Source: Escherichia phage vB_EcoP_Kapi1
DNA: 39,436 nt
Strand: one strand, 5' to 3'
Sequence record: MT813197
Shown: positions 1 to 39,436 of the stretch, piece by piece
Position numbering within the stretch: the first letter of the stretch is position 1
Layout of the letters: each line of letters opens with the position of its first letter
The notes under the pieces: model-generated
Databases searched by the model: none
What the model was told of the DNA's origin: nothing
The model's input: only the letters and a program-made list of their open reading frames with translations
Position numbers and translations under genes: made by a program

Positions 1-1
1 A

Positions 2-17
2 ATGGTGTCCCCTGCAG
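2..17 (-). other. att core (attL/attR copy): minus strand reads CTGCAGGGGACACCAT, which I recall as the 3' end (incl. CCA) of tRNA-Arg argW; tRNA body not present
   Basis: 16-nt string seen at window edge; upstream tRNA T-arm not present so this is a partial copy as expected for a prophage junction; tRNA identity from memory. Confidence 0.5.
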
Positions 18-74
18 ACATCTACTTGAAGCAGCAGGGGATTGATTGGAATGGTGTTTTTTAGATGTGAGAAA

Positions 75-96
75 TATTTTACCCGCTATTTTACCC
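75..96. repeat. Tandem direct repeat TATTTTACCC x2 (75-84, 87-96), candidate Int arm-type / RDF binding sites
   Basis: Exact 10-mer repeated with 12-bp period next to att core; same TTTTACCC motif recurs in both orientations at 39278-39322 upstream of int. Confidence 0.45.
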
Positions 97-291
97 ATTG
101 GCGCGGCTTAAGAGCTTATTTTTGAATTCACAATGGTCACGATATAACCATCTTGCTCGACCGTGGATAACTTTGGCTTTTGGCAGGTCGCCGGACTTAA
201 TCCGGTCATAGATGAAGGTTTTACCAAAGCCAGTATCAGCCATGATGAATTTCAAATCAACCAGTGAATCAGGCTGTAGTTCGTGTTGCAT
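91..291 (-). CDS. xis: Excisionase / recombination directionality factor, AlpA family (TorI-like)
   Basis: 66 aa, MQHELQPDSLVDLKFIMADTGFGKTFIYDRIKSGDLPKAKVIHGRARW; matches my recollection of KplE1 TorI; GGAG RBS 8 nt upstream of ATG; adjacent to att core. Confidence 0.8.
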   Translation of the reverse strand: MQHELQPDSLVDLKFIMADTGFGKTFIYDRIKSGDLPKAKVIHGRARWLYRDHCEFKNKLLSRANG

Positions 292-332
292 GAGTGCTAT
301 CTCCGAATAGGGAATCGAACCTGCAAATCAGG

Positions 333-357
333 CAATAAAAAACCGCCATCAGGCGGC
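333..357 (-). terminator. Rho-independent terminator (minus strand) between early-left ORFs and xis
   Basis: Hairpin CCGCC-ATCA-GGCGG followed on minus strand by TTTTTTATT. Confidence 0.55.
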
Positions 358-531
358 TTGGTGTTCTTTCAGTTCTTCAATTCGAATATTGGTTACGTCT
401 GCATGTGCTATCTGCGCCCACAGCATCCAGTGGTCATAGCAGTCGTTGATGTTCTCTGCTTCGATAACTCTGTTGAATGGTTCTCCATTCCATTCACCTG
501 TGACTCGGAAGTGCATCTGTGATTTCTCCAA
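349..531 (-). CDS. Hypothetical protein (60 aa)
   Basis: ORF in early-left operon orientation; no recognisable family. Confidence 0.4.
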   Translation of the reverse strand: MEKSQMHFRVTGEWNGEPFNRVIEAENINDCYDHWMLWAQIAHADVTNIRIEELKEHQAA

Positions 532-15570: not shown

Positions 15571-15645
15571 GGGTCAGTCGTATAAAGGTCATTACGGAAG
15601 GCTGTTAACCTTCTTATCGTGGTTCGAGTCCACGCTGTCCCGCCA
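15571..15645 (+). tRNA. tRNA-Asn (anticodon GTT), one U-U mismatch in acceptor stem
   Basis: Hand fold: acceptor 6/7 bp, anticodon stem GAAGG/CCTTC with loop CTGTTAA, T-arm CGTGG-TTCGAGT-CCACG, 3' CCA encoded. Confidence 0.6.
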
Positions 15646-15650
15646 AATAT

Positions 15651-15726
15651 GCTGGTTTAGCTCCAATGGTAGAGCAGTCGCCTTGTAAGCGAATGGGTAG
15701 CGGTTCAAGTCCGTTAACCAGCACCA
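15651..15726 (+). tRNA. tRNA-Thr (anticodon TGT)
   Basis: Hand fold: perfect 7-bp acceptor GCTGGTT/AACCAGC, D-arm GCTC/GAGC, anticodon loop CTTGTAA, T-loop TTCAAGT, 3' CCA encoded. Confidence 0.7.
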
Positions 15727-17959: not shown

Positions 17960-18262
17960 CCATGTAGGCATTACAAAGCCCATCTACGGGTGGGCTTGAT
18001 AATGAAACCGGAATTTATTCTGGGCAACCAATTAACGGCAGTACCACGAAGCAACCCAAGCCAGTAAGTGGGGAAATAACACTGGCAGCCACTGAAAGAT
18101 GAACCTCCTGCCTTATGGCAAAAAAGATTCTTTGTGGTGGCGGACTGATGGAAAGACATCGGTTATTGCAGAGGTCATTCAATGAGTGGTCTCGACAATG
18201 GCTTATACCCTACACGGGATAACTTAATTGATATCCCTTTTAACGGATAAACGGAGCCAACA

Positions 18263-33804: not shown

Positions 33805-34001
33805 ACCACCTCCATAGCATTTTGGTGATATTACTATTGTCAGATGCACCAAAGTACCCTTTGCGCATCCCATTAGAGGTTAAGTTAGCAATCGAGAAGT
33901 CAGCGAAAGAAAATGGTCGCTCAATAAATACCGAGATGGTAATGCGATTGGTGGATAGTTTAAGGCGGGATAGTTCTAAAGGTAATCTAGCAAAAAGTTG
34001 A
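33798..34001 (+). CDS. arc: Arc-like repressor (ribbon-helix-helix); start uncertain
   Basis: [38 protein letters not shown] parallels P22 Arc; candidate starts GTG 33798, GTG 33825, TTG 33837. Confidence 0.65.
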
Positions 34002-34063
34002 AGCCCCAACTGCGGGAACAGTCAGGGCTTCGGTATCAACAAATCGGCTTAGGAAATATTGAC

Positions 34064-35042: not shown

Positions 35043-35105
35043 ATGACAGACATTACCTACTCAACAGATGGTCAGCAACCATGTTTGCTGCCTTATAAGC
35101 TATAG
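35043..35105 (+). pseudogene. Displaced ancestral 5' end of tailspike gene (MTDIT...), truncated after 20 codons
   Basis: ATGACAGACATTACC encodes MTDIT, which I recall as the canonical P22-family tailspike start; frame runs into the endonuclease gene and stops. Confidence 0.5.
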
Positions 35106-35553
35106 CCGCTTCATCAATGGTGTTGAATCTCCCAAGGGTTATGTTTTTACCTGAGACATTTATCTGAGCTTGCCATTGATTTCTGGCTTGACAGAAAGTT
35201 ACCCCCTTGATTCCAGCATTGCTATTTCGAGGTCCGACATTTAATGCATTTACGACTCTGCTGACATCCCTAAGGTTTGAGATTGCGTTATTTCTTCTGT
35301 TTCTATCAATGTGGTCAATCTCTTGTTTGGGCCATTCGCCATATACATACAGCCAGGCAAGTCTATGTGCAAAATATCTTACGCCATCAATATTAATTGC
35401 GTTATATCCATAAGAAATTGTGCCAGCAACTTTCCCAACAGCACCTCTGGCGCTTAATTTCTTTTTCCAAGTGAAAATTCCTGTTTCTTTATTGTAATCG
35501 AGAACCTCCATAAGGCGCTCCCGAGTTACTACCTCGTGACGTCTCTTACTCAT
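35053..35553 (-). CDS. HNH homing endonuclease with AP2 DNA-binding domain
   Basis: 166 aa from MSKRRHEV (GGAG RBS); HNH_3-like core [30 protein letters not shown]2-like C-terminus [15 protein letters not shown]. Confidence 0.8.
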
Positions 35554-35566
35554 TATTTTCTCCGGA

Positions 35567-37951
35567 ATGTTTATTATGCCAGAACAATTATACAACGTAG
35601 TTGTTTCACAACCAAGTCAGTTATTTACTTTAGCTCGCTCGTTTAAAGCAAATGCCAATGGCAAAATTTATATCGGTAAAATTGACACTGACCCGGTAAA
35701 TCCAGAAAACCAGATTCAGGTTTATGTAGAGAACGAAGACGGCTCTCACGTTCCTGTTTCGCAACCAATCATCATTAACGCTGCCGGATATCCGGTATAT
35801 AACGGACAGATTGCCAAATTCGTTACCGTGCAAGGCCATTCTATGGCTGTTTATGATGCGTATGGTGCGCAGCAGTTTTATTTTCCCAATGTGCTAAAAT
35901 ATGATCCAGATCAGCTGGACGTAAGACTTTCATCTCCATATGGAACATCGTATATTCATCATAATGGTGAGAACGCTGTAGATGTTCCACTTAATAAGTA
36001 TCTGGCATGGCGTAATGGAGATATCTCCGCCTTCGGAGGTAAATATAACGACTCAGCTTCTGGAGATCTGAATAAATCTGCATTTGCAGAAATGGAATCA
36101 ACCTTCGGAGGAGTGCGCTTGAACCTGATGGGTAAGTCTGTTTATATTCCAGATGAAATGAATCTACAGGTATCAAATATAGAAATATGGGGTGGTGGGA
36201 ATATTATGGCAGGCGCAGGCTACGCCTTCTTCCTAAAAGAAGGTGGAAGTGTAACTGCAAAGAACTTCCATATTGAAGGAGTGTCTTCAGATTATCCTAG
36301 GCTAGTTGGAAGTATTCAAGGTGTTGCTTACAAAATCAAAGATATCTCTTACAGTCACTTCACTACCAAAGGACGCGTTATTCTTTTTGCTGGGCTTGGT
36401 AACACTATCTATCCAGCGGTTAATCCAGAAGTTACAGGATATGGATGTAATTCTGTAAAGATTTCACACTTTCACTCTGAGTCACCTGTAGATTATATTG
36501 TTTCTTTACAGGATTTCCCGTTCAGTACGCTTGAGGTAGCAAACTTCACTGTACACAACATGGCGGGGACATTCATAAATGCAGGGATAACCAACGAGAA
36601 CCCTTACGAACGCCAATTGCAAAGAGCGATGGAGTTGGTATCAATCCACGACTACACCGTTGAAAATGAAGACAGTTTTTGGGCTGATGGTAACTACGCT
36701 TACACCACAATAGGTGTTTGCGAGTGCTGGAATCTCAATCACTATAACGGAACTCAAAGAGGGGTAAAGGTCAGGAACTCAGGAAATTCCTATTACGATC
36801 TGTACAATGGCTCTCATCTTGTCGCTGAGCGAGATATAACAGTAGTAGACGGTTATGTGTGGAATGATTGGCATCTGTCCCCTCATAAGATAAAAAACGC
36901 TTATCAGTACACTAGCCAAAATAAGCGCTGGTACTATACTCGAGACTATATAGCCAGAATTAAGGCTCTGTTTCCTGGTGTCGATGAAACAAAATCAACT
37001 GGTTCATTCTTCTATCCAGAAACTCAGGACTGGCACAACGAAACTACCGGGCCTTTGGAATATGGCAACCGTTTCATTCACATCGACAATTGCGACATTG
37101 AACTTATCAGACTTGGTTTGGTGCATGGTAATGCCGTTAATACAAATATAAGGATAACTAACAATCACTTTAGTTCACTATCTACACTGCGTACAAACTT
37201 CATGCAGGTAGCCAATTACCCATACAACATATATCAGCAGATCACATTCAAAGACAATAGACTTGATTTGCCAAAAGCTACCGTAAGCGGAATACTTAAA
37301 ATGCTTAACGGTGGTGAAGCAGGAGGAGGAGGATTTACTGGTGTCGTGGATATTTCTGGCAATGTTGGTAGATTTGATAATCTTATCGTATTTGACGATT
37401 TCACCACCGTGTCAAGTCTGTATGCAAACATGATGCTCTCACTGAGAAACAATGATTTTGTCTCTACGACCAACTGCTATCTGACAGGTGATGGCGTGCA
37501 AACAAGTCAGTTCGACGCCTCTGTATGCGACAAAAATTTCCTCAGTGGGGCGTCAGTCAAGATCGGTGCTCTGTGGAATACCCAGGGAAGAATCGAAGTA
37601 GGTGCGGTTATTAACTCATTTTCACCAGTGATATTGTTTGATGTTGGCATCCCGACAACAATGAATGTTGCTACAGGTGATAGGTATATTAACATTGATA
37701 ATGGGTCATCCGGGGTGCGAGTTATCAAGTTCACCATTTCGAAGGATGCTAATTCTACAAGCATTACCTTTACAGATGGAGCAGGAACGCAAGTAACTAA
37801 AAAAACAGGCACAGATAATGGAACCTTTTCAGTTAATGTAGGGGCATCAGCTGGATTTGCTGTAAATTGCATTGTTTCCTCCACAGGAGTTTCAATACAG
37901 ACAGCTTCTTCACTTAGACAGCGCTTTATCATCTCTGGATATACTGTATGA
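35567..37951 (+). CDS. Tailspike protein (P22-like N-terminal head-binding domain, distinct receptor-binding domain)
   Basis: 794 aa; residues 9-110 ([40 protein letters not shown]...) parallel P22 gp9 N-domain; first 8 residues replaced by insertion-derived sequence. Confidence 0.85.
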
Positions 37952-37956
37952 GAATC

Positions 37957-37993
37957 TCCCGCCATATTGGGCGGGGATTAATTAATTTTTTTT
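37957..37993 (+). terminator. Rho-independent terminator after tailspike
   Basis: CCCGCC-ATATTG-GGCGGG followed by T-run ATTTTTTTTT. Confidence 0.6.
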
Positions 37994-38122
37994 GAAAGCA
38001 TATTCTACAACTACTTTTGATGAAGCTTTTGTAAGATGCTTATTATCTGTATATGCTGGTATTCCATCCCTGATAATATCGCACATCACATCATATCATT
38101 ATGGGGTCTTCTGCATTTATCA

Positions 38123-39277
38123 TTACTCTTTCCCATCAAGCCAGTCCGCCCACCATTGCATCATTTCTCTGCGTTTGTCGAGATACTGAGCATGGTTGTA
38201 AATTCCACGCACGGATCCGCCGTTGGCATGTGCCAGTTGCACTTCAATAGCATCAGCGGGCCATTCGTGCTCGTTCATAATCGTGCTGAATTCATGCCTG
38301 AATCCGTGACCGCTTTCCAGACCCTCATAGCCGATTTGTTTGATCACAAGCAATACCGCGTTCTCGCAGATTGGCTTCTTCTTATCGTTGCGCCCGGCAA
38401 AAACAAACTCTGATACTGGTTTGGTGATTGAGCTTAGCGTAGTGAGAAGTTCAACCACCTGGTCCGACATCGGGACCACATGAGTTTTGCGGCCCTTCAT
38501 CACACTGGCGTCGATGGTGATAATCCTGTTTTCAAAATCGACGTTCTTCCATAGCATGGAACGAAGCTCTTTCGTTCTTAGGGCAGTGTAGCGTAAAACT
38601 TTGGTCGCAATGAGCGATACGATACTTCCTGAAAATGTTGCCAGTGCTTTGTTGAATGCAGGGATCTGGTCTGCAGGAAGAAACGGGAAGTTCTTCTTGC
38701 GGTATCCCTTCATGGCGTCTGCAAGGTCAGGTGCCGGGTTATATTTAGCCCTTCCGGTGACAATAGCGTAACGAAAAACCTCGCCGCATCTTCTGCGGGC
38801 TTTGTTGGCTCGCTCCATTGCACCGCGATCTTCAAATCTGCGGATTACTTCCAGCAGTTGCATCGGCTCAATATCCTGAATCTCAAGGCCGCCGATGATG
38901 GGTAAAATGTCGTCATCAAACATTTTGGCAAGTTCAGTTGCATAGCCTACTGACCAGACTTGCTTCTTGTGCTCGTACCATTCCTTGTAAATCGCACTAA
39001 AGGAATTGTTGTTAGACGAAGCCTTTTTCGCCTTTACCGGATCGATGCCAACCGAGATGTCTTTCCTCGCAGTCCATGCTTTATCCCTTGCCTCTTGCAA
39101 AGTCATAAGCGGATATTTTCCGACAGTCAGGATTTTCTCCTTACCGTCAATCTTGTAGCGAAGCTGCCATACCTTTTTCCCTGATACAGGGACATAAAGG
39201 TACAGGCCATTACCATCGAGTAGGCGGTATGGTTTTTCTTTCGGCTTTGCTGCTTCAATCTGCTTAACGGTGAGCAT
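38123..39277 (-). CDS. int: Tyrosine integrase, P4-type (KplE1 IntS-like)
   Basis: Start placed at MLTVKQIEAAKPKEKPYRLLDGNGLYLYV; C-terminal catalytic region HGFRHEF...RGIYNHAQY; the ORF-track start at 39313 is a GTG. Confidence 0.85.
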   Translation of the reverse strand: MLTVKQIEAAKPKEKPYRLLDGNGLYLYVPVSGKKVWQLRYKIDGKEKILTVGKYPLMTLQEARDKAWTARKDISVGIDPVKAKKASSNNNSFSAIYKEWYEHKKQVWSVGYATELAKMFDDDILPIIGGLEIQDIEPMQLLEVIRRFEDRGAMERANKARRRCGEVFRYAIVTGRAKYNPAPDLADAMKGYRKKNFPFLPADQIPAFNKALATFSGSIVSLIATKVLRYTALRTKELRSMLWKNVDFENRIITIDASVMKGRKTHVVPMSDQVVELLTTLSSITKPVSEFVFAGRNDKKKPICENAVLLVIKQIGYEGLESGHGFRHEFSTIMNEHEWPADAIEVQLAHANGGSVRGIYNHAQYLDKRREMMQWWADWLDGKE

Positions 39278-39322
39278 GGGTAAAAATCCGGTGGGTAAAA
39301 TTATTTTATCCACTTTTTACCC
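39278..39322. repeat. TTTTACCC-type motifs (GGGTAAAAA, GGGTAAAA, TTTTTACCC) immediately upstream of int start; candidate Int/RDF binding sites
   Basis: Same octamer as the tandem repeat at 75-96, here in both orientations. Confidence 0.45.
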
Positions 39323-39436
39323 GTCATGGAGTGCGGCTGTCAACGATCTGACGCGAACCATGACGAACCGTGAATATACGGAAGGCTTGATATTCAGGGG
39401 ATTTTGCGGACTTGTACGGATGGGAGCGAACTGATA

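What the first reader, a model, noticed from the sequence alone, without database searches (positions are those of the whole stretch)
2..96. Prophage junction at window edge: 16-bp tRNA-Arg 3'-end core with int and xis at opposite prophage ends (KplE1-like)
Minus strand 17-2 reads CTGCAGGGGACACCAT, which I recall as the 3' end of argW tRNA-Arg including CCA, but no tRNA body follows, as expected for the partial att copy. The excisionase gene lies directly beside it, whereas the integrase is 39 kb away at the other end, transcribed away from the expected second att. This splits the recombination module across attP, as described for E. coli KplE1 (IntS/TorI), rather than the lambda xis-int-attP order.
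Basis: partly seen in the sequence, partly recalled or inferred. Interest (0 to 1): 0.5.

Follow-up and report, generated by a model that had tools for sequence, protein, structure and literature searches.

The report
Kapi1 prophage attachment site at argW
The window is the complete, already published temperate phage Kapi1 of E. coli MP1, written in prophage order. Its left edge is the 17-bp copy of the argW tRNA-Arg 3' end where the phage recombines with the chromosome, so the finding is correct but already known.

Summary
CTGCAGGGGACACCAT sits at window 17..2 on the minus strand, once and exactly. It is the 3' end of tRNA-Arg(CCU) argW.

The window is 100% identical to E. coli MP1 chromosome 1404950-1444385. 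In MP1 an intact argW ends in the same sequence 3 bp beyond the window's right end. The direct repeat there is 17 bp (window 1..17).

Deleting the window in silico gives a yfdC-argW-dsdC junction that occurs at 100% identity in other E. coli genomes. In the free phages Sf6 and HK620 the window's two ends are contiguous, and the 16-mer is their annotated attP core.

The adjacent gene is TorI, 66/66 identical to K-12. The far-end gene is IntS, 381/383 identical, transcribed away from attL. Its KplE1-defined promoter, TorI sites and arm-type sites are conserved.

The element is phage Kapi1 (39,436 bp; Pick et al. 2022, mBio). That paper reports the 17-bp att, the int/xis split, junction PCR and an attB deletion. 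Novelty: already known. Interest is low.

The only unexplained item is a conserved T-loop-like box (GGTTCGATTCC) just upstream of torI. It is identical over 16 nt to argW nt 46-61.

The parts
1..17 (-). attR copy of the 17-bp att repeat CTGCAGGGGACACCATT. The published KplE1/Sf6/HK620 16-bp core is 17..2. It equals argW nt 61-75 plus 2 nt.
   Evidence: Sf6 and HK620 'attP core' annotations map onto window 2..17. PMC8787464 gives 5'-AATGGTGTCCCCTGCAG-3' as the Kapi1 att.
18..96 (-). P arm of attP/attR. It is 100% identical to K-12 KplE1 attR and holds two direct GGGTAAAAT repeats (96..88 and 84..76), which are candidate IntS arm-type sites. The first overlaps the torI stop codon.
   Evidence: Alignment; motif positions. 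The TAAA-containing arm-type motif is described for the P' sites in PMC2951348. Assigning these two P-arm repeats as arm-type sites is my inference.
91..291 (-). torI (xis), the recombination directionality factor, 66 aa.
   Evidence: 66/66 identical to K-12 TorI. Matches the full length of PDB 1Z4H 'Tor inhibition protein' at E=6.6e-43. PGAP names it torI.
311..326 (-). T-arm-like box TTGCAGGTTCGATTCC, identical to argW nt 46-61, lying 20-35 nt upstream of the torI ATG. Function unknown; candidate operator.
   Evidence: exact match. GGTTCGATT is invariant in 10 diverged modules. HK620 annotates a cII site and a 'phage integration' promoter overlapping it.
340..359 (-). Terminator-like hairpin (AAGCCGCC-TGAT-GGCGGTTT followed by a T run) just upstream of the torI region.
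38123..39277 (-). intS, a tyrosine integrase of 384 aa with an N-terminal arm-binding domain.
   Evidence: 381/383 identical to K-12 IntS. Pfam hits Arm-DNA-bind_3, Phage_int_M and Phage_integrase. R234, K261, H324, R327, H350 and Y360 are invariant among 5 homologues.
39278..39436 (-). P' arm (the attL arm) overlapping the intS promoter. It holds the -35 TTGACA (39343..39338) and the -10 TAAAAA (39319..39314). It holds five TorI-type pentamers (39431..39427, 39411..39407, 39368..39364, 39358..39354, 39348..39344). It holds four TAAA/TTTA arm-type motifs (39319..39316, 39308..39305, 39299..39296, 39284..39281).
   Evidence: Motif positions; alignment to K-12 attL, Sf6 and HK620. The sites and promoter were defined experimentally for KplE1 (PMC2951348). 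The attL repeat and argW lie just outside the window at 39437-39513.

Best explanation
The window is one genome length (39,436 bp) of the temperate P22-like phage Kapi1, as it lies integrated in the argW tRNA-Arg(CCU) gene of E. coli MP1. It runs from the attR repeat to the base before the attL repeat. Bases 1-17 are the phage-borne copy of the argW 3' end, which is the crossover core of attP.

Integration (inferred from the family): IntS is a tyrosine recombinase with an arm-binding N-terminal domain. It binds arm-type sites in the P arm (window 18-96) and P' arm (39278-39436) and exchanges strands within the 16/17-bp identity with attB. argW stays intact because the phage supplies an identical 3' end.

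Consequence of the gene order: attP lies between torI (xis) and intS, so integration places the two genes at opposite prophage ends.

Regulation (shown in KplE1, inferred here from conserved sites): intS is read from its own promoter inside attL and is repressed by IntS and TorI.

Excision (shown in KplE1, inferred here): it is triggered by TorI production. TorI binds five sites in attL and directs IntS to recombine attL with attR.
For: The window is identical to MP1 1404950-1444385 (checked base for base). argW with the same core lies 3 bp past the right edge, and dsdC lies on the left. The in-silico excised junction (817 nt) occurs at 100% identity as a single aligned piece in five E. coli genomes, and 911 of 5426 genomes cover at least 80% of it. 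The joined window ends are gap-free collinear with Sf6 and HK620 attP, and the annotated attP cores coincide with window 2..17. TorI is 100% and IntS 99% identical to K-12, with integrase domains and catalytic-type residues present. The -35, the -10, the TorI pentamers and the P' motifs sit where the K-12 sites sit (against PMC2951348). The literature describes KplE1's 16-nt core CTGCAGGGGACACCAT and a module conserved in HK620, Sf6 and CUS-3. For Kapi1 it reports 39,436 bp, 47.1% GC, the 17-bp att AATGGTGTCCCCTGCAG, sequenced junction PCR products, and junction bands in 19/20 wild-type versus 0/24 attB-deleted colonies. The window's GC is 47.14%.
Against: Nothing contradicts it. The limits are as follows. 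The window itself contains no host DNA, so the prophage state is shown only through the MP1 record. IntS and TorI binding and promoter activity were measured on KplE1, not on this sequence, and the P' arm differs from K-12 at a few bases between sites. The simple promoter scan did not flag PintS. The probable reason, which is my reading, is that its -10 TAAAAA lacks the T the scan requires at hexamer position 6. Pfam gave no hit for TorI.
Confidence: 0.97

Rival explanations
1. The edge is not a physical junction. It is only where a circularly permuted phage genome record was opened. On this reading the window would be the GenBank Kapi1 record linearised at attP, and 'int and xis at opposite ends' would be a consequence of how the record was cut.
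For: The window starts exactly at the repeat and ends exactly before the other copy, and it holds no host base. Its length equals the published genome length, and the paper describes the genome 'beginning from xis'. In Sf6 and HK620 the two window ends are contiguous.
Against: This is compatible with the main explanation rather than opposed to it. The same 39,436 bases lie in this order in the MP1 chromosome between dsdC and argW. The junctions were confirmed by PCR in the paper.
Confidence: 0.5
2. The 16-mer is a chance resemblance to a tRNA end and has no role in recombination.
For: None beyond its short length.
Against: The expected number of exact chance matches is about 2e-5 (my arithmetic; single exact hit). 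A second copy lies at the 3' end of argW, bounding the element. An exact empty site exists in other genomes. The 16-mer is the annotated attP core of Sf6 and HK620. Deleting attB abolishes integration at this locus.
Confidence: 0.01
3. It is a defective, KplE1-type cryptic remnant that keeps only the recombination module.
For: The recombination module is nearly identical to that of the defective KplE1. One annotated gene fragment is present ('regulator', incomplete).
Against: The PGAP table shows a full P22-like gene set: repressor, cro, cII, replication, nin region, antiterminator, lysis, terminase, portal, scaffold, coat, DNA-stabilisation and ejection proteins, immI and tailspike. The paper isolates infectious Kapi1 that forms zones of clearing and lysogenises a naive host.
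Confidence: 0.02

Closest known systems
Phage Kapi1 (vB_EcoP_Kapi1, GenBank MT813197) of E. coli MP1; Pick et al. 2022, mBio (PMC8787464)
   Same: Same length (39,436 bp), GC (47.1%), host strain, flanking genes (dsdC and yfdC), 17-bp att sequence, two tRNAs before the lysis genes, and int/xis split. This is the same element.
   Different: Nothing detectable. The GenBank record itself was not in the searchable phage collection, so identity rests on the MP1 chromosome match and the paper's description.
KplE1 / CPS-53 cryptic prophage of E. coli K-12 (IntS/TorI module; Panis et al. 2010, 2012)
   Same: Same target (argW), same 16-nt core, identical TorI, 99% identical IntS and an identical attR P arm. 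The attL arm has the same promoter and binding-site layout.
   Different: KplE1 is a 10.2-kb remnant without a repressor or morphogenesis genes, and it carries gtr-like yfdGHI next to intS. The window is a complete 39.4-kb phage with no gene of that kind between tailspike and int. The repeat is 16 bp in K-12 and 17 bp in MP1, because the host base after attB differs.
Phages HK620, Sf6 and CUS-3 (P22-like phages integrating at argW; HK620 and Sf6 are classified as Lederbergvirus)
   Same: The xis-attP-int order, core and arms are collinear, and the int region is 96-97% identical at the DNA level. Overall genome architecture is P22-like.
   Different: The genome is mosaic elsewhere; the best single record, CUS-3, covers only 61% and 39% of the two halves. 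The tailspike is different. Sf6 has oac between tailspike and int.
Phage lambda int-xis-attP
   Same: A tyrosine integrase with arm-type and core-type binding, a small RDF, and integration and excision through attP x attB and attL x attR (PMC2951348 introduction).
   Different: In lambda, xis and int lie on the same side of attP and are co-transcribed from PL, with sib retroregulation. Here attP separates the two genes, int has its own promoter inside attL and is autoregulated, and the RDF sites lie in attL.

Membership tests
IntS/TorI (KplE1-HK620-Sf6) argW recombination module | Integration into the 3' end of tRNA-Arg(CCU) argW, with the duplicated core CTGCAGGGGACACCAT at both prophage ends. 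| tested here: met
   The core is at window 17..2 and again at the 3' end of argW, 1 bp beyond the window, in MP1. The core sequence is as published.
IntS/TorI (KplE1-HK620-Sf6) argW recombination module | An IntS-type tyrosine integrase with an N-terminal arm-binding domain. | tested here: met
   381/383 identical to K-12 IntS. Pfam Arm-DNA-bind_3, Phage_int_M and Phage_integrase. Catalytic-type residues are invariant.
IntS/TorI (KplE1-HK620-Sf6) argW recombination module | A TorI-type RDF; the literature reports 100% identity with the HK620 and Sf6 RDF proteins (HkaC and P18). | tested here: met
   66/66 identical to K-12 TorI and matches the full length of PDB 1Z4H at E=6.6e-43. The statement on HkaC and P18 identity is in PMC3509656.
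IntS/TorI (KplE1-HK620-Sf6) argW recombination module | attP lies between the RDF gene and int, so the two genes end up at opposite prophage ends, with int transcribed away from attL. | tested here: met
   Gene positions and strands. Collinearity of the joined window ends with Sf6 and HK620.
IntS/TorI (KplE1-HK620-Sf6) argW recombination module | The intS promoter overlaps attL, together with P' arm-type sites and five TorI sites. | tested here: met
   The -35 TTGACA, the -10 TAAAAA, five G(T/A)(T/C)CG pentamers and four TAAA motifs are present at positions homologous to K-12. This is sequence conservation only; their function was shown for KplE1.
IntS/TorI (KplE1-HK620-Sf6) argW recombination module | Site-specific integration and excision that depend on the att site, IntS and TorI. 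| not testable with these tools
   Published for Kapi1: junction PCR, and 19/20 versus 0/24 integration with and without attB. The dependence on IntS and TorI was shown for KplE1 and HK620 substrates, not for Kapi1.
Intact P22-like temperate phage (Lederbergvirus-like) | A complete set of P22-type morphogenesis genes, an immI region and a lambdoid early region. | tested here: met
   PGAP feature table. sar RNA hit at 72 bits. Mosaic matches to CUS-3, Sf6 and HK620. The paper reports clustering with P22-like phages.
Lambda-type recombination module (int and xis adjacent on one side of attP, co-transcribed) | int and xis adjacent on the same side of attP. | tested here: not met
   torI and intS lie on opposite sides of the core.

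The most novel reading that the evidence does not exclude
The 16-nt stretch just upstream of torI (window 326..311) is identical to argW nt 46-61. Its core, GGTTCGATT, is invariant in 10 modules from at least six genera. I propose that it is an uncharacterised cis-regulatory element, such as a TorI or IntS operator on the still undefined torI promoter. It would set the level of the RDF and so control excision. A related possibility is that it is a relic of a longer tRNA-derived attP that was kept for that role.
Probability: 0.3. Interest if true: 0.35.

Novelty: already known. Interest (0 to 1): 0.07.

Why it matters
It shows that a sequence-only reader can correctly recognise an att core and a split int/xis module. 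Biologically it adds nothing. The IntS/TorI module has been studied in KplE1 in the 2010 and 2012 papers read here and in the earlier work they cite. This exact phage's att site, orientation and attB dependence were published in 2022. The argW-dsdC locus is a common prophage hot spot: only 911 of 5426 complete E. coli genomes show the unoccupied junction. The one loose end is the conserved T-loop-like box upstream of torI. It could bear on how RDF expression is controlled, which Panis et al. (2010) propose as the main control point of excision.

Tried and rejected
1. A chance match was rejected (plus my arithmetic).

2. I looked for the window as a phage record. No full-length match exists in the phage collection; the best record, CUS-3, covers 61% and 39% of the two halves. 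The E. coli genome collection gave the exact source.

3. The consensus promoter scan did not flag the experimentally defined PintS, and it found no promoter near torI. This is uninformative. For PintS the probable reason, which is my reading, is that the -10 is TAAAAA.

4. Pfam gave no family for TorI. Identity to K-12 TorI and to PDB 1Z4H settled the assignment.

5. I tested the idea that the phage carries argW nt 46-77 split by an inserted 293-bp torI-plus-P-arm cassette. I searched 5426 E. coli genomes for a second unsplit copy of at least 28 nt and found essentially none: 5368 places in 5367 genomes. In other genera a T-loop-like TTCGAT also sits directly left of the core, and the box upstream of torI is conserved. 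A simple 'split relic' reading is therefore not favoured over a conserved functional box.

6. A T-arm-like RNA hairpin for that box was considered by eye on alignment A2 only. The 3' stem is not consistently complementary across genera, so I did not pursue it.

7. The 2007 JBC paper that defines the att sites could not be read. No paper in the library contains the box sequence.

Full report
**1. Observation.**

Window 1-17 reads aatggtgtcccctgcag. The minus strand 17..2 is therefore CTGCAGGGGACACCAT, exactly as reported. It occurs once in the window with no mismatch. By my arithmetic, an exact 16-mer on two strands of 39,436 bases is expected about 2e-5 times by chance.

The K-12 argW gene (L001 510-584) ends ...GGTTCGATTCCTGCAGGGGACACCA and is followed by T. 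The MP1 argW is identical to it. ARAGORN and Rfam call no tRNA at this edge. The only tRNAs in the window are an Asn(GTT) and Thr(TGT) pair at 15571-15726.

**2. Where the window comes from.**

The window is 100% identical to E. coli MP1 chromosome NZ_CP139039.1 1404950-1444385. A base-for-base check gave window = L004 2001..41436.

- To the left lies dsdC.
- To the right, 3 bp beyond the window, lies an intact tRNA-Arg(CCU), followed by yfdC.
- These are the same neighbours as the K-12 cryptic prophage CPS-53/KplE1.

In MP1 the two copies of the repeat are 17 bp, CTGCAGGGGACACCATT. The attR copy is window 17..1. The attL copy is the 3' end of argW at window-equivalent 39453..39437. The window therefore runs from one repeat copy to the base before the other, which is exactly one phage genome length.

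**3. Boundary tests.**

*Empty site.* I joined the MP1 DNA left of attL, including one repeat, to the DNA right of attR and searched 5426 complete E. coli genomes.

- Five genomes carry this 817-nt junction at 100% identity as a single aligned piece.
- 911 genomes cover at least 80% of it.

The element is thus a precise insertion of 39,436 bp.

*Free-phage form.* In Sf6, HK620, IME10, HF4s, N7 and others, the sequence matching the window's right end stops at the base immediately before the sequence matching the window's left end. The joined window ends align without a gap to Sf6 and HK620. The features annotated 'attP core' in Sf6 (18099-18114) and HK620 (1368-1383) fall on window 2..17.

**4. 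The genes.**

- Window 291..91 (-) encodes a 66-aa protein identical to K-12 TorI. It also matches the full length of the NMR-solved chain 1Z4H at E=6.6e-43.
- Window 39277..38123 (-) encodes a 384-aa protein 381/383 identical to K-12 IntS.
- IntS carries Arm-DNA-bind_3, Phage_int_M and Phage_integrase domains.
- The arginine, lysine, histidine and tyrosine positions expected of a tyrosine recombinase are invariant among five homologues.
- intS starts 159 bp from the right edge and is read away from it.

**5. The att arms.**

The attR P arm (window 18-96) is base-for-base identical to K-12. It holds two GGGTAAAAT repeats.

The attL P' arm (window 39278-39436) carries the elements that Panis et al. 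(2010) defined experimentally for KplE1, at positions homologous to K-12:

| Element | Window coordinates |
|---|---|
| -35 TTGACA | 39343..39338 |
| -10 TAAAAA | 39319..39314 |
| TorI-type pentamers (five) | 39431..39427, 39411..39407, 39368..39364, 39358..39354, 39348..39344 |
| TAAA/TTTA arm-type motifs (four) | 39319..39316, 39308..39305, 39299..39296, 39284..39281 |

The conservation of these sites is shown here. Their function in this phage is inferred.

**6. Mechanism.**

*Shown here.* The repeat bounds the element. The tRNA stays intact because the phage supplies an identical 3' end. attP lies between torI and intS.

*Shown in the literature for KplE1 and HK620 substrates*.
- IntS catalyses recombination.
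- TorI directs it towards excision by binding attL.
- intS is transcribed from a promoter inside attL and is repressed by IntS and TorI.
- The RDF and integrase genes do not share an induced promoter, so excision is proposed to be controlled mainly through the RDF gene.

*Inferred for this phage.* The same scheme applies. After induction, torI would be reached by early-left transcription through the terminator-like hairpin at 340-359.

**7. Comparison with what is known.**

The literature search showed that this element is phage Kapi1 (Pick et al. 2022, mBio, PMC8787464). The paper reports the following:

- a genome of 39,436 bp with 47.1% GC (the window's GC is 47.14%);
- host strain MP1, with the phage integrated between yfdC and dsdC;
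- a 17-bp duplication, 5'-AATGGTGTCCCCTGCAG-3', which equals window 1-17, at the 3' end of tRNA-Arg;
- an att 'identical to Sf6, HK620 and KplE1 except for the 5' A';
- attP between int and xis, so that the two genes lie at opposite prophage ends;
- sequenced junction PCR products;
- loss of integration at this locus when the 17-bp attB is deleted (0/24 versus 19/20 colonies).

RefSeq also annotates the K-12 attR copy of the argW end as a pseudogene named pawZ.

**8. A side observation.**

The window holds a second exact piece of argW on the same strand. This is nt 46-61, TTGCAGGTTCGATTCC, at window 326..311, which is 20-35 nt upstream of the torI ATG. In tRNA coordinates it abuts the core. 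At first this suggested a longer tRNA-derived attP split by a 293-bp torI-plus-P-arm cassette.

Three results speak against a mere relic:

- The same box is present in K-12 and HK620.
- Among TorI-homologue loci from 24 enterobacterial genomes, ten diverged modules keep an invariant GGTTCGATT at a fixed distance from the ATG. They come from Escherichia, Enterobacter, Serratia, Citrobacter, Pantoea, Edwardsiella and two MAGs. The surrounding DNA is only about 64% identical.
- No unsplit second copy of the 32-mer exists in 5367 E. coli genomes.

The box contains the TorI-binding pentamer GTTCG and equals the tRNA T-loop. HK620's depositors annotated a cII site and an integration promoter overlapping it. 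The torI promoter was called non-characterised in 2010. I found no paper containing the box sequence. Other modules lack the box (Klebsiella phage Chronis). Its role is untested. A TorI or IntS operator upstream of torI is my best guess, at about 0.3.

**9. Verdict.**

The feature is already known, both as a family (the KplE1/HK620/Sf6 IntS-TorI module) and for this very phage (Kapi1). Interest is low.

Noticed in passing
window 311-326 (-): TTGCAGGTTCGATTCC, identical to argW nt 46-61, lies 20-35 nt upstream of the torI ATG and abuts the att core in tRNA coordinates. GGTTCGATT is invariant in 10 diverged TorI modules from at least six genera, while the flanks vary (alignment A2). It contains the TorI-site pentamer GTTCG and overlaps HK620's annotated cII site and integration promoter. 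Its function is unknown.
   Followed up: partly
window 98..1 joined to 39436..39394 (-): A 46-codon ORF (MGKIAGKIFLTSKKHH...), homologous to HK620 hkaB and Sf6 gene 17, runs across the attP core. Integration changes its C-terminus, giving a 50-aa form at attR. It may be the small ORF the Kapi1 paper calls 'hyp25' (the correspondence was not checked); hyp25 overexpression did not change LPS. Its conservation may simply reflect the att sites it overlaps.
   Followed up: partly
window 15571-15645 and 15651-15726 (+): Two phage-borne tRNA genes, Asn(GTT) and Thr(TGT), lie between the antiterminator gene and the holin gene. They are called by ARAGORN, Rfam and PGAP.
   Followed up: no
window 33996-34062 (-): An Rfam sar RNA hit (72 bits), the antisense RNA of the P22 immI region. 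It lies beside the Arc-family and antirepressor genes.
   Followed up: no
window 37952-38122: Only about 170 bp separate the tailspike gene from intS. Sf6 has the O-acetylase gene oac and KplE1 has gtr-like yfdGHI at the corresponding position. The Kapi1 paper reports O-antigen modification but could not assign it to any of four candidate genes, so the responsible gene remains unidentified.
   Followed up: no
window 35053-35511 (-): A gene annotated as HNH-endonuclease-motif protein lies on the opposite strand immediately upstream of the tailspike gene (35576-37951). It also occurs next to other tailspike types in other argW prophages.
   Followed up: no
window 340-359 (-): A terminator-like hairpin with a T run lies just upstream of the torI region. 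torI expression from early-left transcripts would need read-through or a local promoter.
   Followed up: no
L004 (MP1) argW-dsdC locus; E. coli genome collection: The unoccupied yfdC-argW-dsdC junction is found in only 911 of 5426 complete E. coli genomes. A query spanning the end of the HNH gene, the tailspike gene, intS and the attL arm (window 35500-39436) matches 2320 genomes, for most of them over only about 40% of its length. argW is a heavily used integration hot spot.
   Followed up: partly
L005 2790-2860 (Klebsiella phage vB_Kpn_Chronis) and L010-L027: In diverged IntS/TorI-type modules the attP core reads (G/A)TTCGATGT-N-TGCAGGGGAC. T-loop-like similarity to the tRNA therefore continues left of the E. 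coli 16-bp core. The core can be read as an inverted repeat, ATGTC-TGCAGGG-GACAC, which would fit a 7-bp overlap region. This is my reading and is untested.
   Followed up: no
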